A stretch of DNA of 64,000 nt from Pelagomonas calceolata (Eukaryota). This document shows, in pieces, positions 1 through 48,800 of the stretch (position 1 is the first letter of the stretch; each line of letters begins with the position of its first letter). Location: NCBI GenBank assembly GCA_918797485.1, contig CAKKNE010000004.1, positions 5,084,001 through 5,148,000 of the forward strand, written 5' to 3'. The notes beneath the pieces are model-generated. The model saw only the letters and a list, made by a program, of their open reading frames with translations. It made no database searches and was not told the origin of the DNA. The translations under genes were made by a program, and so were the position numbers.

Positions 1-471
1 AAGAGCACCATGCCGCGCGAGGGCCGGGTTTAGCGAGCGAGAGACCGAGCTCGATGCGGATGCGGCGGCGGGCGGGATGACCGGTTACCCGCCACCCGAC
101 GCGCCCACGCGTACGCCGGCCGTGGCGTGCAACCCGCACTTGCCCGCGGCGCAGCGCGCCCGCTGCCCCGGTCCCGCAGGCGAGTCCAGGGATCCCGCTG
201 GTCGCCCTCGACGGGCGCGTTTGGGCCCGACGGCCTGCCAAGACGGCCTGCGCTTTCGTGCGCTTGGTGGGAAGCAATCGAAGCAACAGGTACGGAGGCA
301 ACTGCGGATCTTAACTCTCGCCGCAATCGTACGACCGTCCGCGACGGGTTACTGTGGCGGCGACGGCGTGTGATGGTTTTTGGTCGGGTATGGTAGGTTT
401 GGGTATGTATAAAAGTACCTAACAACGCGCTTTTAGGGCGCAGCTTGCCAGCGCCGGCGACGGAAAACGGC

Positions 472-1722
472 ATGAATACCCAGGTCATCGATTTGACATC
501 TGAGGAGAGCTCGAGCACGCAGCGGTTGACCTCGTTCGAGGCGTCGACGGAGGCGGCCGCGGTGACGCCGGACACGAGCGGCGACGCGGCGCTGGCCGAG
601 CGCCTCGCACGCAAGGAGTCCGCGCGCGCGAAACCGAACGGCGACGCGCCGGACACGAGCGGCGACGCAGACCTCGCGGCCAAACTCGCGGGCAGCGGCC
701 CCGCGGACACGAGCGGCGACGCGGACCTCGCGGCCAAACTCTCGGGCAGCGGCCCCGCGGACACGAGCGACGACGCGGCGCTCGCCGCGCGTCTCGCGGG
801 CCAGGCGGACCGCACCGCGGGCGACGCGGCCTACGCCGCGCGGCTGGCCGCCCGCGACGCCCGCACGGAGGGCGACGCGGCGCTGGCGAGGCGCCTCGCC
901 GCCCGCGACGCCCGCACGGAGGGCGACGCGGCGCTGGCGAGGCGCCTCGCCGGCGCGGACGACGCGAAGAGACGCCGCGTCGAGCCCGCGCCCGTCGCCG
1001 CGCTCGCGTCGATCCGCCGGTTGCTCGGCGCGGATCCCGCCGACCTGGCGCGGCCCGACGAAGCCGTCCGGCTCTACCCGCAGCCGGACGGCTGGAGTTG
1101 TGGCTACCGCTGCCTGCAGACGCTCGTGTTCGCGCTGCGGCGCGCCGGCGCCGAGTACGGGACGGCCCTGGCGTCGGCGGGCCTCGCGGAGCCCGGCGGC
1201 GTCGCGTCGGTCTCCGCCGTCCAGGCGGCGGTCGAGCGCGGCTGGACCCGCGGCTTCGACCCCACGGGCGCGCAGCAGACGCGAGACAGGCTGCGCGGGC
1301 GCTTTCCGTTCGTGGGCTCGCGCGAGTGGATCGGCTGCTGCGAGGCGTGCGTCGCGCTGCGGAGCGCCGGCGTCCGCGCGGACGTCCGGGGGTTCGACGG
1401 GCGGCGCGACGGCCTGGCCGCGCGGCGCCTCGTCACGTACCTCGCAGACTACTTCAAGAACGTCGTCGGCGTCGGATCCGACGACGTCTGGGGCGCGTCG
1501 TGCCTGCCGCCGGCGCTCGTCTGCTTCGGCGGCCACAACCGCTGCGTCGTCGGCGTGTCGCGCGACCGGCTCGTGCTCCTCGACCCGAAGTGGCGCGAGC
1601 CGCGCCTCCAGTGCATGGCGCCGGCGGACCTGGCGCGCCACGCGCGCCAGTGGGAGTGCCTGGTCGTGCGGCCGGGCGTCGCCACGCGTCCGCTGCCGAC
1701 GGAGCCCGGCGATCCGGCCTGA
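472..1722 (+). CDS. ZUP1: ZUP1/ZUFSP-like deubiquitinase (peptidase C78) with N-terminal tandem MIU-like repeats
   Basis: ATG at 472. Catalytic-Cys motif DGWSCGYRCLQTL, GFDPTGAQQ...WIGCCE and His/Asp motifs GGHNRCVVGV...LLDP fit the C78 family. Seven D-A-x-L/Y-A-x-[RK]-L motifs precede the catalytic domain. Confidence 0.85.
   Translation: MNTQVIDLTSEESSSTQRLTSFEASTEAAAVTPDTSGDAALAERLARKESARAKPNGDAPDTSGDADLAAKLAGSGPADTSGDADLAAKLSGSGPADTSDDAALAARLAGQADRTAGDAAYAARLAARDARTEGDAALARRLAARDARTEGDAALARRLAGADDAKRRRVEPAPVAALASIRRLLGADPADLARPDEAVRLYPQPDGWSCGYRCLQTLVFALRRAGAEYGTALASAGLAEPGGVASVSAVQAAVERGWTRGFDPTGAQQTRDRLRGRFPFVGSREWIGCCEACVALRSAGVRADVRGFDGRRDGLAARRLVTYLADYFKNVVGVGSDDVWGASCLPPALVCFGGHNRCVVGVSRDRLVLLDPKWREPRLQCMAPADLARHARQWECLVVRPGVATRPLPTEPGDPA
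571..951 (+). repeat. Coding tandem repeats (54-bp and 51-bp periods) encoding MIU-like helices
   Basis: gacacgagcg recurs at 571, 652, 706 and 760; acggagggcgacgcggcgctggcgaggcgcctcgcc recurs at 865 and 916. Confidence 0.9.
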
Positions 1723-13028: not shown

Positions 13029-13062
<34 letters not shown>

Positions 13063-27632: not shown

Positions 27633-27885
27633 GAAGTCTGTTGCATGCTTACTCGAGAAACTCGTCGCCGCGTTCCTCGCCTTGTAGTTTACCGTGGCGG
27701 CCGCCGGCGCTGCTGCCCGGGATCACTAGAAGACTAATATAAAGTGCGCACGGCACGCTTACCCGGAAGGGGGGAGCGCGCGCGCGCGGGGCAAGGTCAC
27801 GCCGATGGGGGGAAGGTGACGGCGGCGCCGCGCCCGGGACCGATTCCGGGGGCGGCGGCCGGGCCACCGGGAAGGGAGGCGGCGT

Positions 27886-30800
27886 CTACCCCGCCGGGGC
27901 GACGGCCGAGAGCTGCGCGCCGGTGCACGTCGTGCCCTCGTTCTCGCAGAACGCGGACGTGCCGACCGAGTTGCGCGCGGCCACGCGGACGTAGTAGCGC
28001 CGGTCCGGCGTGAGGCCGCTCACCGTCACGCTCGTGCTCGAGGTCGTCACGGTGTGCGTGTCGGTGCCGTCGAACAGGGGCGACTCGGACGCGGTAATCT
28101 CGTATTCAAGCAAGGCTGCGCCGCCCGTCGACTCGGGCAGCGCCCCGCCGAGCGCCACCGGGCACTCCGACGGGTTGGCGGCGAAAGCTGCACATGGGAT
28201 GCCGTGGTGAGGGACGCGCGGGTAGAGCCACGCGACGTCGACCTCGCCCTCGCCGCCGGGGGCCGCGCTCAGCGAGCGCGGCGCCCCGGGTATGACAAGC
28301 GAGGGCGCGGCCGACAGCGTCGCCGACGCGGCCCCGTAGCCGGCCGCGTTGATCGCCGAGACCTTGACGTAGTACGTCGTGGACGGGCTCAGCTCGTCGA
28401 TGGTGTACGAGAGCGCCACGGTTGCGTCGACGTCGACCGTGCCCTTGTGCGGCGAGGCGCTGAGGCTGTTGAAGCTCGAGCTCGTGTCCCACTCGACGCG
28501 GTACGCCGTGATGCTGTCGCCGCCGTCGTCCTCGGGGTAGCCGTAGCCCAGGGTGAGCATGCTGTCGCTCGTGACGCCCAGCACGACGTTGGACGGCGCG
28601 CCGGACTCCTCGTAGGGCGCCGCCGACGACGGCGCCGACCCCTGCGGCGTGCCGCAGCCCTGGCCGTTGCAGGCGGACACGCGCACGTAGTACCGCTGCC
28701 CCTTGTCGAGGCCGGAGACGGTCTTGTAGAACGGCGAGCCGCCGTCCAGGTAGGTGACCGCGACGCTCTTGACCTCGCCGAGGAAGCTCGCCGAGGTCGC
28801 GTACTCGACCTTGTACGACGTGATCTCGTCGCCGCCGTCCCACGTGGGGGAGCTGAACTGCGTCCGCAGCTGCGACGCCGAGACGGTCGAGAGCACGACG
28901 CTCGTGGGGGGCCCGGGCGTCGTCATCGGCTTGCTCGGGGCGCCGGCCGCCTGCGGGAGCGAGTACCCGACGCTGTTGACGGCGGTCACGCGCGCGTAGT
29001 ACTGCTGGCCGTTCACGAGGCCCGAGCCGTCCGACGGGACGACCAGGGTCGTGCCCGTGCACGACGCGTACGTGTCGCCCGACTGCACGAGCGTCGCGGT
29101 GAGCCGGGGCGCGTACCGGCCGCCGGAGCTGCCGACCGTGCCGTTCGCGTCGCGCAGGGAGTTGTCGTTGATCGACACGACGAAGTCGTTCGCCGCGCTC
29201 TCGGGCGCGGCGTCCAGGAAGGTGACGTACCACTCGTAGCCGCCCGCGTCGTCGGGGCCGTACCGGGCCACGTCGACGCCGAGGTCGAGCAGCTCGTCCA
29301 GCGCCTCGAGCTTCGCCTCGACCGAGCCGGACGCGCCGAGCCGCCCGCCCGGCGCGCAGTAGGCCCCGTCGGTCTCGCAGAAGATCTCCGACGTCGTCTC
29401 CGTGCCGCGGCCGCCGTGCACGCGCGTCAGCGCCGCGTTGCCCTTCGTCGTGCCGATGAAGGGGACGTCGTTGCCGGTGTCCCGGTCGGTGAGGTTGAAC
29501 CAGGCGCTCTCGGCGTCGATGGCCCCGCCCTGCATCCACTGCGTGGGGAACTTGGCCCGGTACACCTGGCCGCCCCACTTCTGCTCCGCGAAGGTCACGA
29601 GGTCGCCGTCGAAGAGGATGCCGGCGAGCGAGCCCGACGCCGTCACGCGGGCCGAGTTGTTCGCGACGCTGAACGTCCGGCATTCCAGCGACCCGGCCGT
29701 GCAGAGCCGCTCCGACGCGTAGATCTCGTCGCTCGACAGCGCGACGGCGTCGTAGGGGATCGGGTCCGTCGTGTAGGCCACGGCCGCCTTGGACACCTGG
29801 AGCTGGAACGTGCCGCCGACGATGGGCGACGTCGCGCCGACGCCCTCCGACGCGACCTTCCACACCGTCGGCTTGTTGGCCGTCGGGCAGTAGAAGTCCT
29901 CCCGGATCGGGTCGTCGAACGTGTCCGTGGGGTCCAGCTCGACGCGGTAGTGCGTGACGGTCGCGCCGCCGTCCGACTCGGGCTCGCCGAAGCTGATGGT
30001 CAGCGAGTCGGCGTCGCCCGGGTTGACGCCGACGGACACGTCGGTCGGCGGGTCGGCGATCTGCTGCGGGACCTCCGTGGGGGCGGCGGTCCGCGCGGGG
30101 CCCGCGCCGAACGCGTTGACGGCCGCGACGCGCACCGAGTACGCGACGCCCGGCTCGAGGTCCGTGATCGTGTACGCCAGCGCGTCGGCGTCGACGAGGG
30201 CGGAGCCGTAGCGCGCGGGCGCCTCGCCGACGACCGAGTCGTCGGCCTTGAGGCCCGTCACGTCGTCGACGGCGTTCTCCGCGCCCGTGATCGACGAGTC
30301 CGCCGCGCCGCCCAGCGCCGGGTGGTAGAGGTACTGCGCGTCCTTGAAGAGCGTCGGCTGGTCGCCGACGTGCGTCGCGAACGTGATGCTGTACTCGACG
30401 CCGCGCTCGCCCGCGCTCGGCGCGTACGGCCGCTCGGAGACCGCGACCTGCTTCACCGTCGGGAGCAGCTCCAGCGCCTCCGCGAGCTCCGCGGCCGTCG
30501 CCCGCGCGCTGACGTAGGGCGAGTAGGCCGAGCCGTCGAAGCCGAGCCGGAAGAAGCCGCGCACGGGCTGCGTCTCGTTCGTCGAGGCGTCGACGTCGCC
30601 GTAGATGCGCAGGACCTGGACCTCGGCGCGGCCGCCGGACCGCGCGCCCGGGCGCACCTCGGAGACCTCGACCTCGAGGTCGTCGCCGATGCTCGCCTCG
30701 GGGATGTTGATGGGCACGAGGTCGCCCTCGTTCAGGCCGCCCGGCGCGCAGTCCGCGAAGGTCACGGTCCAGGCGTAGCCGTGGTAGTTGTTCGTGCTCG

Positions 30801-33800
30801 CCCGCGTCACGCGCACGTCGCCCGCGACGTACTCGTGGTCGAAGGGCGCGTCCGTGGCGTGGCCGAGGTTGACGAGCGCCGACCGGAGGCGCGACGCGGC
30901 GGCGTTGTAGTTCAGCTTTGCGGTCGTGACGCCGTGGGTCGTCGCCGACCGCCCGTTGGAGAACTGCACGACGAAGCCGCTCTCGGAGTCGGGCGTCGTG
31001 CCCGCCGCCCACGTCGCGCGGATCTGCTGCTCCTCGCAGACCGTCTCGGCCGTGAACCACTCGACGAGGTAGCCCGTGATCGGGCTGCCGTTGTCGCCCG
31101 CGAGGCTCGAGTTCGTCGCGTTGCCCGGGGCGAGCCACGAGACGTCGAGCTCGGTGATCGGCGCGCCGCTCCGCGTCAGCGCCGTCGACACCGCGAGGGC
31201 GTCGCAGGCGTCCGGCGCGGCGGCCGGCGCCGTCGGGTCCGCCGCCACGCCCCACGGCGACGGGCCCACCTCGTTCACCGCGGCGACGCGCGCGTAGTAG
31301 ACCACGCCGCTCTCGAGGCCCGTCAGGTACGTCACGGCGGGGCCGCCCTCGTGGAGCACGTTCTCCGCCGCCGCCGCCGCGGTGACGTTCACGCGCCGCA
31401 GGTTCGTGCCGAAGCTGAGCGACGTGTCGTACTCGACCAGGAAGTGCGTCAGGTTCGAGCCGCCGTCGCTCACGGGGAGGGCGAACCGGAGCTGGAGCTT
31501 GTCCCGGCCGGCCAGCGCCAGCCGCGCCCCGGTGGGCGCCAGGGGCACCTGGTCCGCCGTCACGCCGGAGATGGTCTCGGACCACCGCACGGTGTCGACC
31601 TCGGCGAGCGGGTCGTAGAGCTCGTTCCGCGCCGCGATGCGGAAGTAGTACGTCGTGTTCACCACGAGGCGCGCGACCACCGAGTCGTAGGGCGGCGTCC
31701 CCGCGATGGGCGCGCCCTGGATCAGGCAGCTGCCGAACTCGGCCGTGTCGCAGTGCGCCGCGTCGCCCTCGGCGGCGTCGAACGTGTCGGCCGTGTCCCA
31801 GTGCAGCGTGTACCCCACGATGGTGCCGGAGGCGGTGGGCGGCGGCGACCAGAAGACGCGGATCTCCGACCCCGAGAGGACCTCGAGGGAGAAGCTCCCG
31901 ACGGCGTCCGGCACGCGCTGCGGCGTCGCCTCGGCGACGTCCGACCAGGGCCCGGGGCCCAGCGGGTTCACCGCGCGGCCGCGGACGTACACGGTGCCGA
32001 AGGAGGGGAAGCCCGTCGCGTAGAGGCACGCGGCGCAGCCCGCCGGCCGCACGCCGACCGACGCGTCGACCGGCACGAGCGCGTGCTCGGGGCTCGAGAT
32101 CGGGCGCGGCGCCCCGTTGCCGAGGAACCGCACCTCGTACTCGTAGCCGCCGGCCCAGCCGCGCACGGCGAGCTCGTCGCCGCTCGCGCCCTGGTACGAC
32201 GTGTCCACCGCCGACGAGTGGGCCTCGGCGAGGTGGAGCGCCGTCGGCGCGCCGGCGGCGTCGTAGCTGTCCGCCACCGAGTACCAGGCGCCGCCGACCG
32301 TGATCAGGTCGGACGCCTGCGGCGCGTCCTCCGCCGTCAGCCCGGGGCAGGTCAGCACGGGGTGGCCCGTCTCGCCCCGGCACGTCGCGAGCGCGTCGAC
32401 GCGCGCCGCGTACGTGCGCTCGACCGCCAGCGCGCCGACGCCCGGCAGGGCCTCGAGCGCGTGGCGCACGGCCCGCGCCGTCGCGTCGGCGCCGAGCAGC
32501 GGCGTCGTGGCGCCGCCGTAGCCGAGGCGGAAGTGGCCCGCGACGGCCGGCGTCTCGAAGCCGCGCGCCTCGAAGGCGCCCGACGCGATGCGGACCATCT
32601 GCCGCGTGTAGTCGGCCGGCATGTCGTACTCCGTCACGTCGGCCTCGAAGGAGGCCGTCGACGACGTCTGCAGCTCGACCTTGTCGACGGAGGCGCCGCA
32701 CGCGCCGCGCGTCACCTGGCTCTCCGAGCACTCGCGCGGCACGTCGTACGAGATCGAGATGGCGTCGCCGCGCGCCTCCGAGCCCTTGAGGACCTCGGCG
32801 ACGTGGATCGCCGCGCCGGCGCCCGTGAGCCGCGCCCCGACCGGCCGCAGCTCGGGCACGTCGCCGCGCGCGGTCGTGAACGTGATCAGGAAGGACTTGC
32901 CGCCCTCGGAGGACGCGTCGTCGCGGTCCGAGACCTCCACCGACCCCACGGCCCCGATGGCCTCGAGCGCCGCCGCGACGTCGGCGGCCGCCGCGTCGTG
33001 CGGGAGCGTCGTCGTCGAGTAGCCGTCGACGGTCTCGAGCGAGTACTCGCCGCCGAGGACGTTGCCGTCCCGGACCGTCGTCACGGCGACGGCCGCGCCG
33101 GACCCGGTCAGCGAGCTCACGACCTCGAGCGGCGGCACGTCGCCGGCGCGGTCGAGGAACGTCACGGTCCACGCGTAGCCGTCCTGCGCGTCCGGGCCCG
33201 ACCGCGTCACGGCGACGGACCCGGCGTCCGTCAGGGAGAGCGCCGCCGCGAACTGCGCCGCGGAGGCGTCGGACGCGATGGGCTGCGACGCCGCGACGGT
33301 CATCGCGCCGGCGATCGAGTTGCCGTCGATGACCGTCGACACGGCGCACGACGCCGCCGACGCGACGAAGGCCGCGTCGCCGCGGCAGGCCAGCGTGGGC
33401 AGGTCGCCGGGCGGGTCCCGGTACGTCAGCGTCCACGTGAGGCCCTTGCCCGTGTCCGTGATCTCGACGGCGACCTGCACGTCGCCGATCACCGGCAGCT
33501 TCTCGAACTCGCGCTTGAGCTGCCGCACCGTGACCGGCGAGTCGTCCGCCGCCCGGAGGTCGAAGCCGCCCCGGTCCGGGTTCGTCACGTTCAGGAAGGC
33601 GTCGACGCCGTCGCGCCACCCGAACGGCGTCAGCACGCCGTAGACCTCGGTCGCGAAGAGGTCGGTGCACGCGGTGTCGCCCGTCACGGCGCCCACCTCG
33701 ACGTACGACGCGTTCAGGCCGTACCGGTCCGGCGGCTCGGCGCGCAGGCCGTAGCCGTCGAAGTAGACGTCGAACGCGTAGCCGTAGTGGCTCGCGGCCG

Positions 33801-36800
33801 ACGCGTCGCCCCGCCGCACGACGCGCACCGAGTCGAACATGCGCATGGAGATCAGGGCCTCCTGCACGTCCTCCGCGGAGGCGTCCCAGGCCAGGCACGT
33901 CGAGTTCCGCGCGAAGCGGCCGCCCGTGTTCGGGCCGCCGCGGTCGACGGTGACGCGGAAGGCGCCCTCGACGATCTTGGCCGTGGCGCCGACCACGATC
34001 GTCGCCTTGGCCGTGTGGGTGCCGAGGCCGCGCACGCCGTAGCGGTCCGGCGCCGGCGCGACCGTCACGTTCGCGCCCGCGGCCTTGCCGGCGTAGCCGT
34101 AGACCTCGGCGGCGCAGAGGTGCGCGCGCGGCGGGGGGATCTTCCCCTGGAAGCCGTCGTAGGAGATGGTCCAGGAGTAGCCGTAGTTCGACGACGCGGC
34201 GCCCGTGCCGCTCCGCGCGACCGCGACGTCGTCGGCCGACGCCGCGAAGCCCGTCGCGACGATGGCGGCCGCGACGTCCTCGGCCGGCGCGTTCCAGGGG
34301 ATGCAGGCCGTCGTGAAGTTGTCGTAGATCATGGGCCCCTTGTCGTTGTTGGCGCGCGGCAGCGTGAGGTTCAGGGCCCACGCGCCGCGCGTGACCGTCG
34401 CGAGGGCCTCGAAGGCCACGACGTCCGCGTCCGGGAAGTAGACCGAGAAGTTCCCGGCCACGACCTGGCCGTAGGCCGCCTCGATGGTCACCTCCTGCGT
34501 CTCGAAGATCTCGTCGGCCGTCGCCGTGAAGACCTGGACCTCGTCGACGTGCGTCGCCGCGAGCGTGAGCGCCTGGACCTCGTCGGTGTGCTCCGCCGTC
34601 GCCAGCGCCAGGCCGACCAGCTTCGGCGGCGGCGCGGCCGGCGCGCCGACGGCGGCCGGCGCGCTGAAGTTGCCGTAGCCCAGCGCGTTGCGCGCGGCGA
34701 CGCGCACCGAGTACGGCACGCCCGTCTTGAGGCCGCCCAGGGTGATGCCCGTCGCGGCGGAGCCCTGGACCACGTCGTCCACGACCGTCGCGCGCACGCC
34801 GTCCGCGAGCTGCGTCGCGTCGACGCTCATGGGCGGCTGGTCGCCGAGCGCCTCGTCGAACGCGACCGACACGTAGAAGCCGCTGACCTTGTAGACGCCC
34901 AGCTCGGTGCCGTTGGCGCCGCGGTAGGCCCCGGGCCGGAACGCGTCGTCCGGCCGGCCCAGCGGGAGCTGGGCCGGGAGGAACGCGTCCGTGCGGTGGC
35001 CGGCGCCCGCGCGCACGACGGCCGTGCTCACGGTCTCGGCGCCGTCGCCGGCGCGGTCCATGGCGAAGTTGCGCGACCACGGCGACGCGCAGTCGCTCAT
35101 GTTCACCTCGACGCGCGGCGCGTCCATGACGCCCACGAGGCCGTCGAAGTAGATCGAGTAGACGAAGCCGTTGGGCGCCTCGATGGCGTCCGTCGACCGC
35201 GTCACCGTCGTGGCGCCGGCCACGCCGAGGTGGTGCTCGATGAGGTAGTTGAGCTCGAGCTCGACGTCGGCGTCGCGCGCGTTCCACGCGAGGCACGCCG
35301 ACGTGTTGCCGTAGGGCAGCTCGCGCTGCGCGCGGGCGCCCAGCCCCGCGGCGCCGATCGAGACGCGGTAGGCCGGCGTCCCGCCCTTGGCCCAGCCGCC
35401 GCCGTCCGCGTCCTTGACCGTGATGGTCTGGACCGCGACCTCGGGCTCGCGCACCGCGAAGTACTGCGGCACGAGGAAGCCGTCCGCGTGGCCCTCGCCC
35501 TCGAGCAGGACCTTGGAGCCCAGCGTCAGCTCCAGCGGGTCGGCGCCGCCCCGCGCCTTCATGGACCCGGCCACGGACGCGCCGGGCTTGAGCGTGTCGC
35601 CGCACGCGTAGAGCTGGACGACCCACGTGTCGCCGACGGCGTGGCCGACGCCGCTGCGGAAGCGGAAGTAGACGCCGTCCTCGTCGAAGACCCCGGGGTT
35701 CGAGGGATGCTCCGAGCGCTCGATGGGCACCCAGGCCGTCCGGGCCAGCTGCGCCGCGTACGTCTTCCGGCCCTCGCCCTCGACCATGCGGCTGAAGACG
35801 TAGGTGTCGTTCTTCAGCAGCGTGCCGTTCACGTCGTAGACCGCCGGGGCCGTGATCTCCAGCAGGTAGGTCGCCACCGCCGGCACGCGGCTCGAGTCGT
35901 AGACCTCGAACTCGGCGTCGTCGAGGCCCGCGGCGTTGCCCCGGGCGTTGTAGTAGACCGTCTTCTCCTGCAGGGTCATGCCGTTGTGCACGGCGAAGAC
36001 CGCGGGCAGGTCGCCGGACATGAGGTCGCCCACGTAGTCCAGCTCGTAGGTGTAGCCCCAGGCCGTGCTCCCGTCGCCGAAGCCGCTGCGCGCCACGGTG
36101 ATCTGCGGGTGCGCCACCGTGAGGTTGCGGTAGGTCATGTTCAGCGCGTCCTGGATGCGCTCCTCGAGCACCTCCGCCGGGACGCCCCACTCGAAGCAGG
36201 AGCCGCCGTAGTAGTTCTGCTGCGCGCCGACCGTGTTCGCCGTGACGTGCGTGAGGTGGTTGAGGAAGAGCGAGAAGTAGCGGCCCGTCGCGGGCTTGTC
36301 CGTCTCGGCCTCGGCCGCCAGCGTGAGCAGCTGCACGGACCGCGAGCCGCCCTCGCGCGTCGTGGTGACGCGCGCGTCGCGCGCGCGGCCGCCGACGTGG
36401 GCCCACGAGGCCGCGCACTGGCCCGACGCCTCGTCGACGATCTCCAGCTGGTCCGCGTTCGCGAGGTGCGGGCCGACGAAGGCCACCTCGTAGGCGTAGA
36501 CGTCGCGGCCCCGCGTGACGGTCTTGACGGCGAACGCCGGCGCGCCGGCCAGCGACTTCCAGAGCTTCTTCCCGGCGCCGCAGCCGTCGGACGGCCGGAT
36601 GACGCCGCCGGTCGCGTCGCAGTCCACGGCCCGCTCCAGCTCGAGCTGGGCGGCCGTGCCGTGCGTCGCCGTCGCCGCGACCGTGTAGAGGCGGAACGCG
36701 TCGACCGACCCGCCGATGCGGACGCGGTCGCCGGGCGCGAGGAACTTCGCGACGTCCGCGGAGAGCTCGACCGTCGTCGAGTTGTGCACCGTCGTGGCCG

Positions 36801-39800
36801 TCGCCGCCAGGAGCTGCTCCGGGCCCGCCGCGTCCTGGCAGCCCGCCTCGGAGCCGACGGCCACGACCTCGATCTGCGGCGCGTTCGCGCCGAGGACGCT
36901 GGACGTGGCGCCGCCGTAGCCCGAGGCCGCGCGCGTGTTGTCCGGGCCGCGGAAGGTGAAGACGTAGGCGTAGCCGTGGCCGTACCGCCCCTCGCCGTCG
37001 CCCTCGCGCGCCACGGCGACGTGGCCCGCGTCGTTGGCCACGCCGTCGTTGTTGAAGTCGAAGGCCAGCGCGTCGAACGCCGCCTCGACGGCCGCCGCCG
37101 ACGCGCCGTAGGCGATGCACGCCGTCTCCCGGAACTCGCCCTCGTGCGTGACGCGGAGCTTGAAGAGGCCCTCGGTGTTGGCGTCCGCGTAGTAGACGTC
37201 GTCGGCGACGACCTGGACCTCCGTCCGGCCCAGCGTCGCGACGCCCAGCCCCGACTTGCGCACGGACACCGCGTGCTCGACCTTGAAGAGCTCGACGTCG
37301 TCGACCGAGAAGTGGACCTTGGCGGAGATGTCCTCGGTCAGGCGGAGGGCCAGGCCCTGGTACAGGACCTCGGCGACGGTGAAGACGCCGTCCGTGCCGT
37401 TCACCCGGACGCGGTCCCCGGGGAAGACCTTGCCGTCGAAGCGCGGCCGCCGGTCGACGTGGTCGTCGAACTCGTCGCGGCGCCAGAAGCGCGACGCGTT
37501 CGAGGCGAAGAGGAGCGTGCCCGCGTAGTGGTTGGGCGGGTCGTCGGCGTCCCGGTTGATGGGCCGCAGGTCCACCGTGACGTCGAGCTTGTGGTCCGTC
37601 AGCGACGGCAGCGCGTTCAGCGCGGCCTCGACCGCGGCGCCGTCGGCGCCCCAGTCGAGGCAGGGCGTCGTGAAGCGGCCGTACCTCAGGCGGAAGTACG
37701 CGCCGGACAGCGCGCCCCCGTCCAGGGCCAGCGCGATCTCCTGCCGCTCGGTCACGCCGCCCTGGACGACCGTCTGGACGCCGATGTCGAGGCCCGTGAA
37801 GTTCGACCCGGGCTGCTGCCTGTTGCCCCAGTCCTTGTGGCCCTGCTTGAAGCCCACGGGCCAGAGGCGGTTGCACGTCGACGAGATGAGCTCGAGCTGC
37901 GGCACGTCGCCGACGCCGACGCCCGAGTAGCCCGTCCCGAAGTAGATCGAGTAGAGGAACGCGTCGCCGTGCGCGCCGCGGCCCGACCGCGACACCTCGA
38001 CGCCGCCGCTCAGCGCGTCGAAGCCGTTCAGCGCCGCCGCGACGTCCGCCGCCGACGCGCCGAACTTGAGGCAGTCCGTCGTCTGCGCCGAGCCCGAGTA
38101 CATCATGCGCAGCCGGAAGAGGTCCAGCGACGCGTTGACGTGGTCCGGCGTCACGTCCGCGGCCACGTAGAGGCGCTGCACCTCGGCGCCGGAGCGGATC
38201 ACCTCGTGCGTCTCGCCGCCGACGCGGACGAACGCGCCCGTGGGCGCCGTCCGCACCAGCGACGCCTGGGGCGTGCCCACGACCGGCGAGTCCTCCTTGT
38301 AGGCCAGCAGGCTGCCCAGCCGCGTGGCGCCGTCGGCGGCCGCGCCCCGCGCCGCGAAGCCGCCCCGGTCGCCGCCGAGCCGGAAGACCTCGCCCGGGTT
38401 GAGCGCGTCCGCCAGCACCGTCTCCAGCGTCCCGCCCGCGCCGAAGGTCCCGTCGTACCGCAGCGACGCCGTCGCGCCGTCCCGGTCGACGGTCGCCCAG
38501 ACGCCCTCGACGCGCTGCAGCGCGACGTCCGACCGCGCGACGCGCAGCTCGCCGACGGTGTCCATCTGCTCGAGCACGTACTCCATCTCGTCGTGCGCCT
38601 CCTGCCACTCCATGGGCTCGGACCACGCGCCGCGGACGCCGAGCGCGAACGCGCCCGCGAAGGGCGTCGAGCCGGACCGCAGCACCGTGTTCACGACCTG
38701 GGGCACGTTGCCCTGGAGGCCGTGGCCGTCGACCGTGATCGAGTCCAGGTTGCCCGCGCCCGGCGGGAACGTGAAGCCGCGGTACGCGCCCGGGTTCTTG
38801 GTGAACTTGACGCGCCACTCGAGGCCGCCGCGCTCGCCCTCGGGGGCGACGGCGACGGCGCCCCAGCCGCCCGACGCGGCCGAGGGGTAGGACAGCCGCT
38901 CCACGGCGACGCCGCCCACGGTCAGCATCTCCTCGAGCTTGCGCTCGAACCGCTTGGCGGACTCGTTGTACGCGACGCTGCGCGCGCCGAACGGCGCCTC
39001 GAAGTCGATCTCGAAGGCGCCGGACATGCCCTCGCTGCCCTTGGTCGTCTCCCAGACCGTCGGCACGTACACGACGCCGTTCGTGGCCGGGTCCTGCGTC
39101 ACGTTCAGGTCCACGACGTCGCCCGACCCGGGCGGCACCTGCTCGTGGTTGTAGACGAAGGTCACGCGCCACTCGACGACGCCGTGCCGGCCGTAGACCT
39201 CGCGCGAGACGTTCACGACGCGGCGGCCCAGCGACGTCGTCTCGAGCCACTGCTTGACGGAGCCGGCGCCCTCGCCCGGCGCGTTCCACTGGAGCTGGCT
39301 CGCGCCGAGGGGGTCGTCGCCCAGGGCCGAGAGGGACCCCTTCGGGTCGTCGCCGCCGACGTGGAAGCGCGTCAGGTTGCCGCGCGTCACGACGCCGTCG
39401 ACGCACCCCGAGAAGGTGCAGTTGTTCGGGTTCGTGCGGCCGTCGACCTCCGTCCGCGCCGTCACGTTCTGCAGGTCCGTCTCGAAGGGGTTGCAGCCGC
39501 CCTTCTGGTAGTGCCGGAACCGGTCGGCGTTCGCGCCGGAGCCCTTGGCCGTGTAGTTGAACTGCAGGCCGTCCGCGGACTCGGGCGGCGCGACGTCGCC
39601 CGCGCCCCGGAACGACACGCGGTACTGCCAGGCGTTGGGCGCCTCCGTCTCCGAGAAGTGGCGCGACACCGACACGTTCGCCAGCGCCCGCCGCACGAAG
39701 GCGCGCGCGGACGCCTTGCCGATCCGGGCGAGCGCGTGCCGCACCTGGGCGTCCGTCGCGTCGTAGGGCAGGCAGTCCTCGAAGAACTCGCCCGCGAAGC

Positions 39801-42800
39801 CGATGCGGTAGGACGCGCGCGCGAAGTCGTCGCGGTCCGTCCAGGCCTTGGCGGCGTGGTAGCTCGACGCGTTCGAGCCCCAGCCGGCGTACTCGGGGTC
39901 CCGCACCGCGAAGGACTGCACCTCGTCGCGGCCGGGCGGCGCGGTCCACTTGTCGGCCACGTCCAGGAGCGTGACCTTCTGGCAGTCGTAGGCCGCGCCG
40001 CCGCTCCCGGCGCTGCAGTCGCCCGCGAGCTCCGACGCGTCGAAGCCGCCGAACTTGGGCACGTCGCCGGGGCTGTTGCACCGGTCCTCGACGGTGTCGC
40101 GCTGCTCGCAGTCGCCGAAGCGGCCCTCGCCGCTCGCGCCCGCGTCGCGCAGGAAGGTCACGGTCCACGTGTGGCCGCCGTTGTTGGCGCCCTCGTTGAC
40201 GGGCGACCGCGTCACGAGCACGTCGCCGACGTTGGGCATCTTCTCGAGGATCTCCTCGACGCTCGTGCCGTCGCCGCCGCTCTCGAGGACGCCGGCCTGC
40301 GCGTTGTGCCGGATCGGGTCCGACGTGTAGCTGCCGCGCATGTTGATGATGTCGTGGCCCGTCGTGTCCAGCGTGACGCGGAAGGACCCGCCGAGGGGCT
40401 CCGTGCCCTTGACGTACTCGGCGACGCTGCACGCGTCGGCCGGGAGCGCGCCCGACGACGAGTACATGCCGCTGTCGACGCAGGAGATCGGGGGCATGTC
40501 GCCGCAGTTCTTGCCCCACTCCTTGCTGACGCCCGTCGCCCACGTGTCCGTCCACGTCGTGGCCTCGCCGACCCAGTTGCCCGCCATGGAGCCGTCGTCG
40601 GCGTGGACCACGGTCGGGTCGCGCCACGACGCCGAGTCGAAGGTGATGGACCAGACGTAGCCGCCCACCTGCGTGCCGCCGCTCAGGTCGGGCCCCGTCG
40701 TCATCGGGCCCGAGCGCGACACCTTGACCTTGGACGGGCTGATGGACGAGAGCATGTTGAGCTGGTTCTCGACGTCCTGGGCCGAGGCGTCCGTCGCCAG
40801 CATGCCCGTCGTGTAGCCGCCGAAGCGGAGCTGGAACGAGCCGTAGAGCTGCGCGCCCTCGAGGTCCGTGACCGCCGTCGCCGCGGCGCCCGGGCCCTGG
40901 AGGAGCGTGGACGTCGCCGTCAGGAGCGGCACGTCGCCGCCGACCTCCGCCGACCGGTACGTGATCGAGTAGGAGTAGCCCGCGGCGCGGTTCGGCGACC
41001 CCGACCGCGCGACGTCGACGACGTCGCGCCCGGCGAACAGCTCGGCCTCGAAGAGCTCCTTGAACTCGGCGGCCGTCAGCGCCGTGTAGTGCGACGTGTT
41101 GATCACCGGCAGGTTGTTCTGCGCCGAGCAGAGGTCGCCGAGGCACAGGCCGTACGTGCCGCCGACCTGGCCGCCGTCGCGCGCCTCGCCCGTCGAGTCC
41201 TGCGCGAAGGTGAACGAGTCCGAGACGCCCTGGAACGTGTCCGCCGCGCCCGAGTTCTCGTCCTCGACCTCGACGACCACGGCGCTCTTCCCGACGTCCG
41301 GGTGCGGCGGCGCGAGCGGGTTGAGGCCGAGGCCGGACGTGCCGTAGGTGACAGTCGTGTTCGCCTCGACGCCCATCTGCGGCACGTTGCCGACGGCGCT
41401 CAGGAACGTGACCGTCCAGGCGTAGCCGCCGGCCCAGCGCGTCTCCGTCGACGGGACGTAGGGCGTCCGCGCGACGTCGACGAGCCCGAAGGCCTTGGAG
41501 GCGCCGTCGTCGGCCTGCACCCGCTCGAGGATCTTCTCGAGCCGCGCGGCCTCCTCGTTCCAGCGAATGGCCGTCGTGTTGTAGAGCTTGGGCTTCTTCA
41601 CGCGCTCGTTCGGGAACCGCGTCGAGAGCGCGAAGTCGCCGTCGGCCAGCGAGCCGTCCTGCAGCGTCGTGACGTTGCAGATCAGGGCCGACGCCGGCTG
41701 GCCCGCCGACGACGACGACATGAACGCCGTGTCGCAGCGCATGGGCTTCAGGTCGCCGGGCTGGCCGAGGAACGTGACCTCGACCTCGAGGCCGACGTGC
41801 GTCTTGTTCATCCACACCGCCCCGGGGTCGGAGACCGCGAGGAGGTTCGCGGCCGACTCGATCGTCGGCACCGCGCGCAGCGACGACGAGAACGTCGCCG
41901 CCGACGAGTCCACGGGGATCACCGACGTCTCGCGGACGCGGTCGACGGAGCACGCCTGCGACACGCCGGAGGCCAGCGTGGGGTCGCTGTAGAACGTGCC
42001 GACCTCCGCGTCCGTGGCGTCGGCCGTGGACCCGGTCCACGGCGCGGACAGGCTGACGTTCGCGTAGGGGTAGGCCAGCTCGTCGCGGTCGAAGATCGCG
42101 TCGATCTGCACGTAGGCGTCCGTCGCGCCGCCGACGCGGATCCAGTCCCCGACGTAGATGTCGTCCCGCAGGCCCCAAAGCTTCGCCGAGTCGGACCCCG
42201 CGACGAGGTTCACGACGTCGAGCTTCTGCGTCCGGGCCTCGCACTCGTACGAGAGCTTGATGGAGCCGTCGGGCTGCGCGCCCTCCTGCACCGTGAACGC
42301 GTCCTGCTTGTCGAGGTACAGGGCCCCGATGTCCTCGGGGCAGCTCGGCGAGCACGACGCGTCGCAGCACGTCGCGAGGGTGCCGACGATGCCGGCGCCC
42401 AACGGATATGCGCCAGTGGTCGCGCCCGTGCCGTCGTTGGCCTCGTAGCCGCCGGTCACGTGGACGGTGGTCGGCTCCTTCGAGCTGACGACCAGGGCGG
42501 GCACGTTGCCGCGCAGGTGGCCGCCCGTGAACTCGACGCGGTACTCGACCTTGTAGACGCCGCCAATATCGTTTTGGCCGCCGACGAACTCCTTCGTGAG
42601 CGTCACGTTGAAGCCGCGGTAGCCCTCGTCGCCCGTGGCGCCGGGCGTCTGCGGCCCCTGGGCGTCCTCGATGAACTTCACGCCGTTGATCGTCATGCCG
42701 TTCAGGTGCTCCTCCATCTTGTCCTGGCCGATGAGCGCCCCCGAATCGAATAAATTAAATTCCTTGGCGACGCAGTCGTTGGCCGGGTCCGCGTCGCAGG

Positions 42801-45800
42801 ACAGCGTGCCGAGCGACGGCATGTCCTCGTCGACACCGCGCTGGCAGAAGTTGACGCCCTCGGCGCTGCCGCAGTCCGCGATGTCGAACTTGACGCTGAT
42901 TTTTTCCAGCGCCGGCACGTTGGCGAGCTGCGCCTCGAGCGCGGCCTTGGTCGCGGCCACGGTGCCCTGGTTCGTGTTGCAGTCGAGGAGGTAGAACCCA
43001 AAGGTCTGGACCTCGTCGACGCGCTTCACGGCGTAGGTGATGCGCTGCTTCTCGGGGACGGACGCGACCGTCGACCGGACGATCTGGACCTCGTCCTGGA
43101 ACGTGGCGGCCAGCGTCAGCGTCTGGACCTCGTCGACGTCGTTCGCCGTCGTCGTCACCGTCTGGACCTCCGGCGTCACCTCGTCGGCGGACGTCGTGAT
43201 GGTCTGGATCTCGTCGATGCCGTCGATGTTCGTGCGCACGGTCTGGACCTCGTTCTGCACCCAGACGCTGCCGCGCACGGACTGGACCTCGGAGTGCACG
43301 TCCGCGTCCAGCCCGACGAGCTGGTACTCGGACACGACCGGCGCCAGCGCGACGTCGGGCGTGCCGAAGGCCTCGTCGGCGTCGAACTCGACGCGGAACG
43401 CGTCGATCGTCGCGCCGCCGTCCTTGGGCGGCACGGACCAGGCCGCGTAGATCGACTCGGCGTCGACCGCCGGCGCGATCGCCTCGCTCGGCGGCGTGCC
43501 CGGCACGCCGTCGAGCGTCGTCGCGTACGCGGGCTCCGTGGCCGCCGCCGGCGACGCGCCCTCCGCGTTGAAGGCCGTGACGCGCACGTAGTACGTCTTG
43601 CCGCGCTCGAGCACGCGGCTCTCGACGCCCGTCAGCGGGTCCCGCCCGCCGATGAGGTAGGCCGTCGCCGAGGCCGGCACCATGACGCGCTCGGCCGGCG
43701 ACGAGAAGTCGTCGCGCACGTCCCACTCGACGGCGTACTCGGCGATCGCCGCGCCGCCGTCGCCGCCGTACTCGCAGCCCGGCGTCGCCGACGGCGCGCC
43801 CCACTCGACCTGGAGGCCCACGCCCGACGTGACGTCCAGCGTCGGCGCCCGGGGCGGCCCCGGCGTCCGCACCGTGCCGACGGCGCTGCTCGGGCTCGTC
43901 GCGGCGAACGGCGAGTAGTCGTAGCCGTTGTAGGCCGCCACGCGCACGAAGCGGGGCACCGACGCGGACACGGCCGCGATCTCGATGTCGTAGCACTCGG
44001 TCTCCGCGCCCGGCGTCGCCGCGACGCTCGCCTCGTAGCCCGACGTCTTGATGTTGCGGAAGTCCTCCGACACGTCCCACTGCACGAGGTAGCGGACGAC
44101 GGCCTGGCCGCCGTCGCTCGCCGGCGGCGCCCAGGCGACGCGCAGCGCCGTCGGCTCGAGGGCGTACAGCTCCGCGGTCCGCGGGACCGAGGGCGCCTCG
44201 ACGGGCGCGATCGCGCCCGTGACGATGGGCCCCTCCTGGCCGAGCATGCCCGCCTCGGCGATGGACTCGCCGTACCACGCCTCCGACCCGTCGCCCGAGC
44301 CGTCGATGCCCGGGCCCGTGTAGGCGCCGCGGCCCTCGTCGGTGATCGCCGCGACGCGCACGAAGTAGCCCGTGCCCGAGTCCAGGCCGGCGATGGTGTG
44401 CTTGATGGCGGCGCCCGCGACGACCTCGCTGCCGTAGTCGGCCGGCGTCGTGCCCTGCTCGAACGTCGCCACGCGCGCGGCGGCGTCGGGGCCCGTGAGC
44501 ATGTCGTCCAGCGGGTAGATGGGCGGCACGTCGCCGCGCGGGTGCCAGAACTTGACCTCGTAGTTGTAGCCGTTGTTGTTGACCGTGCGGACGACGTCCA
44601 CGTTCGAGATGGTCGTGAGGCCCTCGAGCGCGGCCTCGACCTCGGCGGCCGTGGCCTCGCACGAGAGCGGCGCCGTGGTGTGGCCCTCGAAGCCCAGGCG
44701 GAAGGTGCCCCGCAGCGGCGCCTGGCCCGGCCGCACGCGCTGCGCGCGCAGCGTCGGCGCCGTGCCCGCCCAGAGGTCCGACTCCCGCGCGTCGAGGAGC
44801 GGCCGCGGCCCGACGAAGCCCACGAACTCGATCGTCCACTCGTAGCCGTGGTCCCAGCGGTAGAGCTGCGCGCCGCCCGTGTCCTCGGAGATGTCCGAGC
44901 CCCGGAAGTTGAGCACGCTGGCGGCGTCGTCCGCCGTGCTCTCGCACTCGGCGCCGTCGACGTCGGGGTCCGTCTCGCTGTGCACGCGCAGCTCGATCTT
45001 CGTGGTGGTGCCCATCTTGAACTCGCCGACGCGGAGGACCTCGCCCGCCAGCATGATGACGCTCCGGCCCTCGTCCTCCAGCGCGGCGGCGAGCGCGTTC
45101 CCGTTGCCCTCGTTCAGCTTGATCGTGCACCCGCCGTGCCCGATGTAGCCCTTGTAGCCCCGCAGGGCCCGCATGGACAGGCGTCGCGTGACGCGCACCT
45201 CGCCCGACGACCCGAGCCGCTCCAGCGCCTCCTTCACGGAGCCGGCGCCCTCGGCGGGCGCGTCGACGGGGATCGGGTCCGTCGTCTCGCCGCCGATGGA
45301 CAGCGTGAAGTGGCCGTTGAGGCCCAGCTCGTCCGCGCCCGTCGTCACCGTCTGGACCTCCGTCACGCCGTCGCTCGCGGAGAGCGTGACGACCTGCGTC
45401 TCGGGCGTGCCCGGCTCCGAGTACCACTCGACCTCGTAGCCCTGGATCTTGGCGCCGCCGTCGTCCGACGGCGGGGACCAGCGCGCGATCAGCGACGTGC
45501 CGGAGCCGACGGCGACGCTGACCTTGTTCGGCGCCGAGGCCTGCGTCTTCGGGACGGCCGCGACCTCGGCCGAGACGGGCCCGTAGCCCGCCCGGTTGTA
45601 GGCCGTGACGCGCGCGTGGTACTCCCGGCCCGCCGTCAGGCCCGAGAACGCGTACGCGAAGGCGTCGCTGCCCGCGACGCGCTCCGTGACGTGGACCTCG
45701 GCCGTCGTCTCGCCGAAGTTCGTCGTGCCGACCATGAGGTTGGCGTCGGCGGCGCCCTGCGTCAGCGTGTGCCGCTGGTGCGTGAACGTGACCGTCCACG

Positions 45801-48800
45801 CGCGCGTGTTCAGGTTCGTGTCGAGGTCCTCCATGCGGACGTTCGTCGCGAAGATGGTGTCGAGGGCCTCGAGCCGCGCCTTCACCTCGGCGGCCGTCGC
45901 GCCCACGGCGATGGGCCCCGTCTCCTGGCCCTCGAAGTTGAGCGTGAAGGAGCCCGTGACGGGCGAGAGCGACGCGAGGTAGACGGTCTGGACCTCGTAC
46001 GAGAAGCCGCCCGGCAGCACGTCGCAGTCGCCGTCCTGCAGCGTGGCGACCTCGATGCGGGCGTCGTCGCCCACGAGGTACGTGTCGTCGGCCGTCAGCG
46101 GGCCGACGTCGCCGTAGACGCCGACGAAGACGACGCGCCACGTGTAGCCGCGCGCCGCGCGCGAGCGCGTGACGCGCACGGGCGGCACGCCGACGTCCCA
46201 GACGCCCGTCAGCTTGGACACGGCGTCGGCCACGTCCTCCGCCGCGACGTCGTACTTCAGGGCCTTGGTCGTGCGGCCGCCCCAGCTCAGCGTGAAGGTG
46301 CCGCGCCGCTCGGCCTCGGGCGCGCGGAAGTGCGTCGTCACCGTCTGGACCTCGTGCACGAAGGCGACCTCGTCGACGACGTACGCCGGCGACGCCGCGT
46401 CGAAGGCGCTGCTGTCGTCGAGCTCGACGCGGTAGGCCGTGACCGTCGCGCCGCCGTCGAGGTGGGGCGGGCGCCAGGCCAGCGACAGGCTCGTCCCGGA
46501 GTAGTGCTCGCCCAGCACGACCGCCGTCGGCCGCGACGGCACGCTCAGGCCGGGCGTCACCGTCCGCTCCTCGGACGGCGGGCCGAAGCCGAGCGCGTTC
46601 CGCGCGCTGACGCGGAAGCGGTACTCGTGGTCCGGCGAGAAGGCCAGGTACTGGGGCGGGTGCCGGCCGGGCGCCACGCCGTTCCGCACCGTGTCGACGT
46701 GGATCGACGTCCGGTTCGACGAGCTCGCCCAGGCCGAGACCCAGTCCGCGTGCACGAACTGCGCGTCGACCTCGAGGGCCGTCGCGCCGGCGTGGCGGCC
46801 GCCCCAGAAGGTCAGCGTGTACACGTAGCCGAACTCGGACGCGGCGTCGCCGCGGCCCGTCCGCTTGACGTCGACGCGGTCGACCTCGTTCAGCTTCTCG
46901 AGCGCGGCGCGCACGTCGTCCTCGGACGCGCCCCAGGCGATGGGCTCGGTCACGGTCGCCGCGGCCTCGCCGTCCGCCAGGTACCGGTCCGAGTGCGCCA
47001 GGCTCAGCGTGAAGTTGCCGCGGACGCCCTGCCGGTTCGCGGCGCACTCCGCGGACGCGCAGCGCAGCGCGACCGTCTGGACCTCGGCCGGCGCGCCCAG
47101 GATCTCGTCCCGCGGCGCCGCGCCGAAGGGCAGGCGGTAGCGCAGCTGCGCGCCCGTGCCGCGCCAGTTCTTCTGCGCCGTGGCCCGCACCGTGTTGATG
47201 GCGTCGAGCTTGCGCGCGCCGCCCGGGTCGGCGGCCAGCGGCGACGCGAAGTCCTTGAAGACCATGCAGTACTCGTAGCCGTTCGCCCAGCCGAAGGCCG
47301 TCGCGCCCTCGGCGCCGACGTCGAACGCGCCCCGGAGGAGGAGGGACGCTGCGTCGACGCGCCGGGCCACGTAGCGCTGGCGGCCGATCCAGACGTCGTC
47401 GCCGTCGGCCAGCGCGCCGCGGAGGTCCGCCGTCGTCGCGGCCGTCACGAGGTACGGGAAGACGTTCACGGTCGGCGTCCCCGCGTCGACGTCGACGTGG
47501 AGCTTGCGGTCGAGCAGCAGGCAGTCGGCGCCGCAGCCGAAGGCGTCGACGTCCTCCACGGCGTACGTCTGGCCGTCGACGACGATGCGCGTGCCGTTCA
47601 CCGCCGAGCCCGGCCCGTCCGCGGCGTCCGACGCGTTGAGCAGGTCGTGGCCGCCGGGGTGGAGGTAGACCACGCGCGAGTAGTCGAGGCCGCCGCTCAC
47701 CCGGGCCGCCGTCGGCGACGCCTGCCACACGGTCGTCGCGGGCGCGAAGCTCACGCGGCCCGGCAGCGCGGCGCGCGAGCGCGTCGTCGACCCGATGAAG
47801 GCCTGGTAGAGGCCCTGCACGTCCTTCGCCGGCGCCTCGCCCGCGTTCAGGTCGTACTGGTGCACGCGGTGGAGCTGGACGTCGCCGCGGAACAGGTCCG
47901 ACGGCGCGAAGGGCGTCGAGAGCCCGAAGACCGTGACGCCGCCCGCCGCCGCGACGTTGAGGCGGTCGAGGCCCAGCGTCAGGTTGCCCCGCACGAAGCG
48001 GTGCAGGTCCTTGATGCGCGGGTAGTAGGTCACGTCCGTGATGAGGCGCGTGGGCCCCGCGTCGTTGTCCCACGCGTCCGTGGCGTTCGACAGCCGCAGG
48101 GGGTCGCCGGCCGCGACGGCCGTCGACGCGTCCCCGAAGGCCACGGCGTAGGCCGCCGTGCCGTTCGGCAGGTAGACCGGGAGCGAGAGCGCGCCGTCGG
48201 CCGCGCCGAGCATCGCCGCGCGCGCGACGACGTCGAGCGCGTGCAGCTCGGCGAGGACCTTGCCGTGCGTCGCGTCCCAGCGGATGTCGCCCGTCTCCTG
48301 GCCGCCCACCGACAGCCGGAACGTGCCGGCCATGTCGCGCGCGTCGGCCATCGTCGACACGTTCACGACCGGGTAGACGTTCGCCGTCGCGTCGCCGCCC
48401 GTGAGCTTGGACGCGCCCGCCGCGAGCTGGTCGACGCGGCCGGCGGCCGGCGGGAAGGTCACGGCGAAGGCGACGCCGTAGGGCGCGTCGGCGTGGTCGT
48501 GCTTCGTCACCTCGACGCCCGGCACGAGCTCGCTCAGCAGCGCCTCGAGGTCGCGCGCGTGGCCGGCGACGGGGAAGCCCCGGATGACCTCGCCCGCGAA
48601 GTAGAGGTCGAGGGCGCCGCCGAGCGCCGTCGTCGCCTCGGCGACGACGACCTGCACGTCGCCGTTGCCGCCGGCGCACGTCTCGTGCGAGCCGATGGGC
48701 ACGATCGTCGCCGTGACGTTCGACTTCGTCAGCGTCGCGTCGCCCGTCTGCTTGACGCTGAACTCGGCGCAGCCGCCCATGCCCAGGCCCGTGGCCGCGT

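What the first reader, a model, noticed from the sequence alone, without database searches (positions are those of the whole stretch)
34660..43500. Russian-doll domain nesting: 9 orphan strands, then 9 strand-less bodies, inside one split FN3 domain
Seen: right after the first half of an FN3 domain (AAWSVPPKDGGATIDAFRVEFD, ~43450-43380) come nine E-[VIYK]-Q strands at ~13-aa spacing (43330-43000) with no domain bodies. Downstream I count nine repeat bodies lacking their own EVQ strand, most starting directly at G-x-F-x-L (e.g. DGSIKL, DGDFAL, GGTYGL, YGSFQL, GGSFRV, SGAFEI, AGAFAL). The second half of the FN3 (GLKTGVPYSVRVAARNALGYG) appears only at ~34740-34670, about 2,900 aa later. Inference: each domain is inserted in the loop after strand 1 of the previous one, so the chain runs out as single strands and returns completing each domain. 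That would form a hairpin rod branching off the FN3 backbone rather than beads on a string. I know of no description of this for these proteins.
Basis: partly seen in the sequence, partly recalled or inferred. Interest (0 to 1): 0.92.

Follow-up and report, generated by a model that had tools for sequence, protein, structure and literature searches.

The report
Giant protein with nine-deep nested domains
A giant, likely secreted protein of algae and water moulds is predicted to build side arms by tucking copies of one small domain inside each other nine deep, so the chain runs out as single strands and comes back completing each domain, far deeper than the two-level nesting modelled for the human kidney-disease protein fibrocystin.

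Summary
Confirmed. One stop-free, transcribed ORF (at least 12,037 aa) has nine 13-aa-spaced EVQ strands after half an FN3 domain, then nine strand-less bodies, then the other FN3 half 2,900 aa later. AlphaFold2 titration: with six bodies only the last six strands fold; with three bodies only the last three. Strand 5 + body 5 and strand 8 + body 2 each superpose on one Bxb1 phage CTE domain (Z 11), i.e. mirror order. Counts read by eye match in relatives: 9/9, 10/10, 13/13 in orthologs; 28/28 and 15/15, 14/14, 5/5, 12/12 in paralogs with other host folds; 8/8 in a Chloroflexi protein. The principle is in print at small depth: fibrocystin models nest FCD2 after strand 1 of FCD1, and Bxb1 gp23 reads as three nested copies. 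New are the depth (9-14), the branched bookkeeping and the spread across stramenopiles. The outer three pairs, the rod shape and the function are untested. The scan noted the same layout before in an oomycete-like genome (e1-7182720).

The parts
27886..63999 (-). Stop-free ORF, at least 12,037 aa, 5' end outside the window; FN3 backbone with many inserted CTE/FCD-type domains
   Evidence: transcribed over 27000-46000 without supported splice joints
43339..43500 (-). First half of the host FN3 domain (aa 6834-6887)
   Evidence: model residues 1-57 superpose on FN3 domains, Z 4.6-4.8
42984..43329 (-). Nine orphan first strands S1-S9 at 13-aa period (aa 6891-7005)
   Evidence: S4-S9 or S7-S9 fold depending on the number of bodies supplied
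42277..42972 (-). Body 1, innermost (tip of the arm), cysteine-rich decorations; partner S9 (predicted)
   Evidence: weak superposition spanning model 159..408 (row 36)
41653..42273 (-). Body 2, partner S8; carries an inserted six-stranded beta-barrel at about 41992-42243
   Evidence: Bxb1 capsid CTE aligns to model 149..616, Z 11.0, rmsd 2.6; barrel model 420-503 matches Dit and F1 N-terminal barrels, Z 5-6.7
41251..41649 (-). Body 3, partner S7 (predicted)
   Evidence: weak superposition spanning 135..753 (row 14)
40861..41166 (-). Body 4, partner S6 (predicted)
40405..40854 (-). Body 5, partner S5
   Evidence: Bxb1 capsid CTE aligns to model 108..1032, Z 11.0, rmsd 2.4, 91 residues
39955..40395 (-). 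Body 6, partner S4 (predicted)
39439..39924 (-). Complete domain with its own strand, a side branch between bodies 6 and 7 (absent from several orthologs)
39040..39393 (-). Body 7, partner S3 (inferred, not modelled)
38665..39027 (-). Body 8, partner S2 (inferred, not modelled)
38524..38661 (-). Body 9, N-terminal half; partner S1 (inferred, not modelled)
34885..38523 (-). Second branch inserted in the beta4-beta5 loop of body 9: barrels and five further domains with their own strands
   Evidence: read by eye with HMM hits and tokens
34756..34884 (-). Body 9, C-terminal half
   Evidence: HMM positions 72-101 at aa 9706-9736; conserved in orthologs
34630..34752 (-). Second half of the host FN3 domain
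   Evidence: Pfam fn3 42-81, E 1.3e-8
32782..34581 (-). Three-strand nest in the next FN3 domain (after its first strand), with three strand-less bodies and two inner domains
   Evidence: read by eye, not modelled
44440..45402 (-). Two-strand, two-body nest inside another split FN3
   Evidence: pattern conserved in orthologs

Best explanation
The stretch is a side arm of a giant, likely secreted FN3-backbone protein, predicted to be built from nine copies of a small phage-CTE/fibrocystin-type domain, each inserted in the loop after the first strand of the one before. The chain leaves the FN3 domain, lays down nine first strands, turns at the tip, and returns through nine bodies in reverse order, each body capturing its strand (S9-B1 ... 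S1-B9), and then finishes the FN3. Shown: the sequence layout, matched counts and transcription. Predicted by modelling: pairing of S4-S9 with B6-B1. Inferred: the outer three pairs; a stacked arm of roughly 9 x 4 nm (13 residues at about 3.3 A each) whose two chain ends sit at its base, so that tension along the backbone would bypass it; and a role as a stiff spacer in a branched extracellular coat or scaffold that displays tip and barrel domains, perhaps for glycan binding.
For: AlphaFold2 with six bodies: S1-S3 coil, pLDDT mostly under 50; S4-S9 beta, 80-95. With three bodies: S1-S6 coil, 51-63; S7-S9 beta, 92-96. One solved CTE domain superposes on S5+B5 (Z 11.0) and on S8+B2 (Z 11.0, best of 48,161 chains). 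Counts by eye: orthologs 9/9 (P0094, P0057), 10/10 (P0080), 13/13 (P0042), the extra strands last and the extra bodies first; paralog P0023 28/28 inside a split NHL propeller and 15/15, stack never negative, depth up to 14; P0153 14/14, 5/5, 12/12, each inside a split IPT domain; P0146 6/6 and 4/4, P0105 5/5 and 4/4; Chloroflexi P0229 8/8 with bodies 70-85% identical. Script: 378 of 423 FN3 blocks with inserts have strand and C-half counts within one. Each of the nine strand positions is most like itself across 45 orthologs. Precedent at depth two in fibrocystin models. Signal-peptide-like N-termini and no C-terminal membrane helix in full-length orthologs, read by eye.
Against: All pairing evidence is prediction; only two pairings are read directly from strong superpositions, and S8+B2 alone fits both mirror order and in-order pairing among the three folded strands. 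pTM is 0.58 and 0.71, so the relative placement of domains is not secure and no coordinates were available to measure a rod. The automatic count in the window is 15 strands against 12 C-halves; 45 of 423 blocks differ by two or more, and three orthologs (P0167, P0176, P0177) give 9 against 5-6 before an early FN3-half hit that I did not resolve. The count correlation (r 0.95) is partly trivial, as both counts rise with insert length, and the blocks are not independent. Strand and body similarities do not co-vary in P0023 (r 0.01 and -0.07) and only weakly in P0229 (r 0.48, p 0.10). No evidence on location or ligand.
Confidence: 0.88

Rival explanations
1. The strands complete the bodies, but in trans or in another order: donor-strand exchange between copies of the protein would polymerise them, as in chaperone-usher pili (recalled).
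For: The strands are alike and exposed in a row; single-chain models cannot show swaps (searches are monomers).
Against: Counts close exactly where an unrelated host fold resumes (FN3, NHL, IPT), which an intermolecular swap does not need; extra units are added at the centre; the 13-residue period matches one domain height (inference).
Confidence: 0.07
2. The bodies fold without a first strand and the EVQ run is a separate element (its own solenoid or a flexible linker).
For: Bodies are about 85% of the domain; folding without the strand was not tested experimentally.
Against: Unpartnered strands are coil in both models and the number that folds tracks the number of bodies; matched counts from 4 to 28 in relatives would be unexplained.
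Confidence: 0.03
3. Assembly or annotation artefact (collapsed repeats, or splicing that rejoins strands and bodies in the mRNA).
For: No whole genome was held for checking; read depth at the 5' part is low.
Against: Same layout in 45 orthologs; RNA reads and a 14.6-kb RNA contig are collinear without supported joints.
Confidence: 0.01

Closest known systems
Fibrocystin (PKHD1) FCD1/FCD2 nested insertion in IPT3 (AlphaFold 3 models; bioRxiv 10.64898/2026.10.19.758525, passages read; PMC13755561, passages read)
   Same: Six-stranded sandwich with a helix after strand 3; FCD2 inserted between strands 1 and 2 of FCD1; one unit given as residues 487-497 plus 786-885, i.e. a lone 11-residue strand and a distant body; host is an Ig-like domain; solved relatives only on mycobacteriophages. 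Paralog P0153 nests inside IPT domains near their end, as fibrocystin does.
   Different: Depth two, one arm, PA14 and MAM included, membrane-anchored. Here depth 9 (14 in P0023), many arms per chain, FN3 host, side branches, probably soluble. The preprint says FCD occurs only in fibrocystin homologs and a few bacterial and phage proteins; stramenopiles carry dozens of copies per chain. No direct sequence comparison with fibrocystin was made.
Mycobacteriophage Bxb1 CTE domains (capsid gp14, tail tube gp19; PDB 9D9X, 9D9W, 9D94) and tail tip cage gp23 (9D93)
   Same: Best sequence hit in the PDB (E 6e-5), best Foldseek hit, Z 10-13.7 superpositions. The gp23 sequence reads as three copies nested inside each other; PMC13252515 calls them three additional CTE-like domains (passages).
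   Different: In gp23 the nesting site is the beta4-beta5 loop, depth three, with no run of orphan strands. The Bxb1 paper itself was not held, so whether it describes the nesting is unknown to me.
Phage tail sheath proteins and flagellin/FliD, out-and-back nested domain chains (the 'Russian doll' description is recalled, from no call)
   Same: Chain goes out and returns; weak fold matches of strand+body units to sheath and FliD domains, Z 4.7-6.1.
   Different: Different domains nested three or four deep, not a repeated self-insertion with one strand out and a body back; the Z values are in the range of common arrangements.
Oomycete, diatom and brown-algal proteins annotated 'titin', 'twitchin' or 'FN3 domain-containing'
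   Same: They are the orthologs and paralogs of this ORF.
   Different: The names rest on FN3 hits only; Pfam has no model for the nested domain.

Membership tests
CTE/FCD domain | Six-strand sandwich with one helix after strand 3 | tested here: met
   Secondary structure of the models against the description
CTE/FCD domain | Superposes on solved mycobacteriophage CTE domains over the whole domain | tested here: met
   Z 11.0, rmsd 2.4-2.6, 91 of about 92 residues; next unrelated rows Z 6.7 or less
CTE/FCD domain | Sequence similarity to CTE domains | tested here: met
   phmmer E 6e-5 to gp23; phrog_10909 206-256 hit by both a window domain (E 0.0012) and gp23; weak
CTE/FCD domain | Direct similarity to fibrocystin FCD1/2 | not tested
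   No fibrocystin sequence or model was returned by any search; the link is indirect, through topology and shared phage matches
Fibrocystin/PKHD1 family | IPT chain, PA14, G8, PbH1, SEA, membrane helix | tested here: not met
   Pfam finds only FN3-type families in the 12,037 aa held; orthologs list FN3 only; the 5' end is outside the window
Fibronectin type III | Both halves of the fold present in order | tested here: met
   First half superposes on FN3 1-56; second half Pfam 42-81
Fibronectin type III | The two halves fold together across the 2,900-aa insert | not testable with these tools
Titin/twitchin (database label) | Ig I-set repeats and a kinase domain in an intracellular chain | tested here: not met
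   None; orthologs begin with signal-peptide-like stretches (by eye)

The most novel reading that the evidence does not exclude
A general protein architecture: one domain that inserts into itself at two loops lets a single chain encode a branched tree with balanced 'brackets' (arms 9-14 domains deep, sub-branches, any host fold), kept since the stramenopile ancestor and re-expanded recently in a bacterium by matched duplication of strands and bodies that lie far apart in the gene.
Probability: 0.75. Interest if true: 0.87.

Novelty: new variant of a known kind. Interest (0 to 1): 0.78.

Why it matters
Repeat proteins are read as beads on a string. Here contacts span up to 2,900 residues (4,100 in a paralog) in strict last-in-first-out order, so the outer domains cannot finish folding until the whole arm is made: a natural test bed for co-translational folding, for how paired duplications keep counts matched, and for structure predictors. 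It re-annotates a conserved giant gene of oomycetes, diatoms and brown algae now labelled 'titin', gives a many-copy model for the nested module of fibrocystin, and offers a design rule for single-chain branched scaffolds.

Tried and rejected
Pfam gave no model for the repeat; tblastn against phages found nothing; the ESM Atlas gave only unnamed eukaryote clusters. A complex prediction of strands 1-3 with bodies 7-9 could not be run, so there is no verdict on the outer pairs. A strand-body co-similarity test was uninformative. A first strand-specificity matrix kept only 5 of 34 rows and was replaced. The order test (5 of 70 blocks against 54.5 shuffled) shows that strands come before closures, but tandem domains pass it too. 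A link to flagellar hairs was considered: the P. infestans ortholog PITG_01932 and the words fibronectin, titin, fibrocystin are absent from the 3 supplements of PMC3471859 and from the main text of the zoospore vesicle preprint 10.64898/2026.09.11.750887 (its supplements are closed); PMC2108286 was held as abstract only; no support. Literature searches for deep nesting returned no papers or none on these proteins among those listed; most subscription papers, including the Bxb1 Cell paper, are not held. Finding e1-3628704 is unrelated.
Full report
Observation. The region lies in one minus-strand frame without a stop from the window edge to 27886 (12,037 aa). Pfam sees only FN3-type families. 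After the first half of an FN3 domain come nine E-x-Q strands at a 13-aa period (43329-43014), then nine bodies lacking such a strand, six further domains with their own strand, and the second FN3 half at about 34750-34630. By eye, with the HMM hits, there are 15 strands and 15 C-terminal halves between the FN3 halves; the script found 15 and 12. Poly(A) reads from two runs of one sample cover all 30 bins of 27000-46000 on the expected strand with no supported splice joint, and a 14,578-nt metatranscriptome contig runs collinear over 28139-42716.

The repeat unit. Ten uninterrupted copies elsewhere in the ORF read strand 1 (EVQ), strand 2 (G-x-F-x-L), strand 3, helix, strands 4 and 5, a short conserved motif and a last strand. 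One copy hits Bxb1 tail tip cage gp23 in the PDB (E 6e-5, the only hit). The AlphaFold2 models superpose on the C-terminal extension (CTE) domains of the Bxb1 capsid and tail tube and on a phage Patience protein at Z 8.8-13.7, above all other rows (6.7 or less).

Pairing tests. Construct 1 held all nine strands and bodies 1-6 (1,187 aa, 69 sequences; mean pLDDT 80, pTM 0.58): strands 1-3 are coil with pLDDT mostly under 50, strands 4-9 are beta at 80-95. Construct 2 held all nine strands and bodies 1-3 (767 aa, 56 sequences; pLDDT 81, pTM 0.71): strands 1-6 are coil (51-63), strands 7-9 beta (92-96). So the number of folded strands follows the number of bodies, counted back from the last strand, and the run has no fold of its own in these models. 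A single 91-residue CTE domain aligns to model residues 108..1032 in construct 1 (strand 5 with body 5; in-order pairing of the six folded strands would give body 2) and to 149..616 in construct 2 (strand 8 with body 2). Weak rows span 135..753 and 159..408, as expected for S7-B3 and S9-B1. The outer pairs were not modelled.

Relatives. 478 proteins matched at E up to 0.001 and the best 150 were held; 59 and 38 more came from two further searches. Named orthologs and paralogs come from Phytophthora, Pythium, Aphanomyces, Saprolegnia, Thalassiosira, Cyclotella, Odontella, Ectocarpus, Aureococcus and Cantina. Of 49 long strand runs directly after an FN3 first half, 45 have nine tokens, and each position is most like the same position in other species (mean BLOSUM 1.76 against 0.30). 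I counted eight relatives by eye. P0094 and P0057 give 9/9, P0080 10/10 and P0042 13/13; in the last two the extra strands are at the end of the run and the extra bodies at the start of the body series, i.e. added at the tip. Paralog P0023 has 28 strands and 28 bodies between two parts of an NHL propeller and 15/15 in a second block; the stack never goes negative and reaches depth 14. P0153 (Aphanomyces stellatus) has 14/14, 5/5 and 12/12, each block closing where an IPT domain resumes. P0146 gives 6/6 and 4/4, P0105 5/5 and 4/4. A ninth, P0229, labelled as from a Chloroflexi bacterium, has 8/8, with seven bodies 70-85% identical and the outermost strand and outermost body both divergent. By script, over 100 proteins longer than 1,000 aa, 226 of 423 FN3 blocks with inserts balance exactly and 378 within one; 45 do not, and blocks of orthologs are not independent. 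Strand and body similarities do not co-vary detectably.

Mechanism. Shown: layout, counts, transcription. Predicted: mirror pairing of the inner six. Inferred: pairing of the outer three; an arm of about 4 nm per domain, near 40 nm in all, with both chain ends at its base, so that backbone tension would bypass it; side branches from a second insertion site (beta4-beta5 loop) and small barrels decorating it. Full-length orthologs start with signal-peptide-like stretches and end without a membrane helix (by eye), so an extracellular coat or scaffold is likely. Glycan binding is only a suggestion taken from the fibrocystin preprint. How matched expansion arises is open: a tandem duplication of a whole domain gives side-by-side copies, so each new layer needs insertion of a copy into the first loop or two matched duplications.

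Comparison with what is known. A bioRxiv preprint (10.64898/2026.10.19.758525, passages read) models fibrocystin with two 'FCD' domains of the same topology, FCD2 inserted between strands 1 and 2 of FCD1, inside PA14 inside IPT3, and says solved examples exist only on mycobacteriophages. PMC13755561 (passages) gives the same units as residues 487-497 plus 786-885 and 498-546 plus 723-785. The Bxb1 gp23 sequence reads as three copies nested at the beta4-beta5 loop; PMC13252515 (passages) calls them three additional CTE-like domains; the Bxb1 paper itself was not held. So self-nesting of this fold is known at depth two to three. I found no paper on runs of orphan strands, depth 9-14 or these stramenopile proteins, within the library's limits.

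Verdict.

Noticed in passing
P0229 (MBI3979136.1, labelled Chloroflexi bacterium), aa 785-1580: Eight orphan strands and eight bodies, recently duplicated (70-85% identical), inserted in a multicopper-oxidase-like protein: the simplest construct for a structure, and evidence that the nest can expand quickly outside stramenopiles.
   Followed up: partly
P0023 aa 233-4360: An NHL beta-propeller split by a 4,100-aa insert with 28 strands and 28 bodies; the deepest nest seen (14).
   Followed up: partly
P0153 (Aphanomyces stellatus Aste57867_9322): IPT/TIG backbone with three balanced nests inside IPT domains, the host type used by fibrocystin.
   Followed up: partly
L001:12928-14985 (Bxb1 gp23): Three CTE copies read as nested at the beta4-beta5 loop; checkable in PDB 9D93.
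   Followed up: partly
window 41992-42243 and many other places in the ORF: A six-stranded barrel resembling phage Dit and F1 N-terminal barrels is inserted in many bodies, sometimes one barrel inside another (about 38520-38190).
   Followed up: partly
P0057 aa 2810-2945; P0094 aa 1800-2050 and 2520-2640: A different small alpha/beta domain is inserted at the tip or in loops of the arm in some orthologs.
   Followed up: no
window 27820-42753 and 42754-56964, + strand: Very long antisense open frames (4,977 and 4,736 aa) mirror the gene; expected from 73% GC and codon bias, and RNA reads are almost all from the minus strand.
   Followed up: partly
window 8750-13258, - strand: 1,502-aa ORF that looks like a Ski2/DDX60-type helicase with a short tandem repeat near its start (label by eye).
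   Followed up: no
window 397-1722, + strand: ORF with an alanine-rich repeat followed by what looks like a ZUP1/C78-type peptidase (label recalled, not tested).
   Followed up: no
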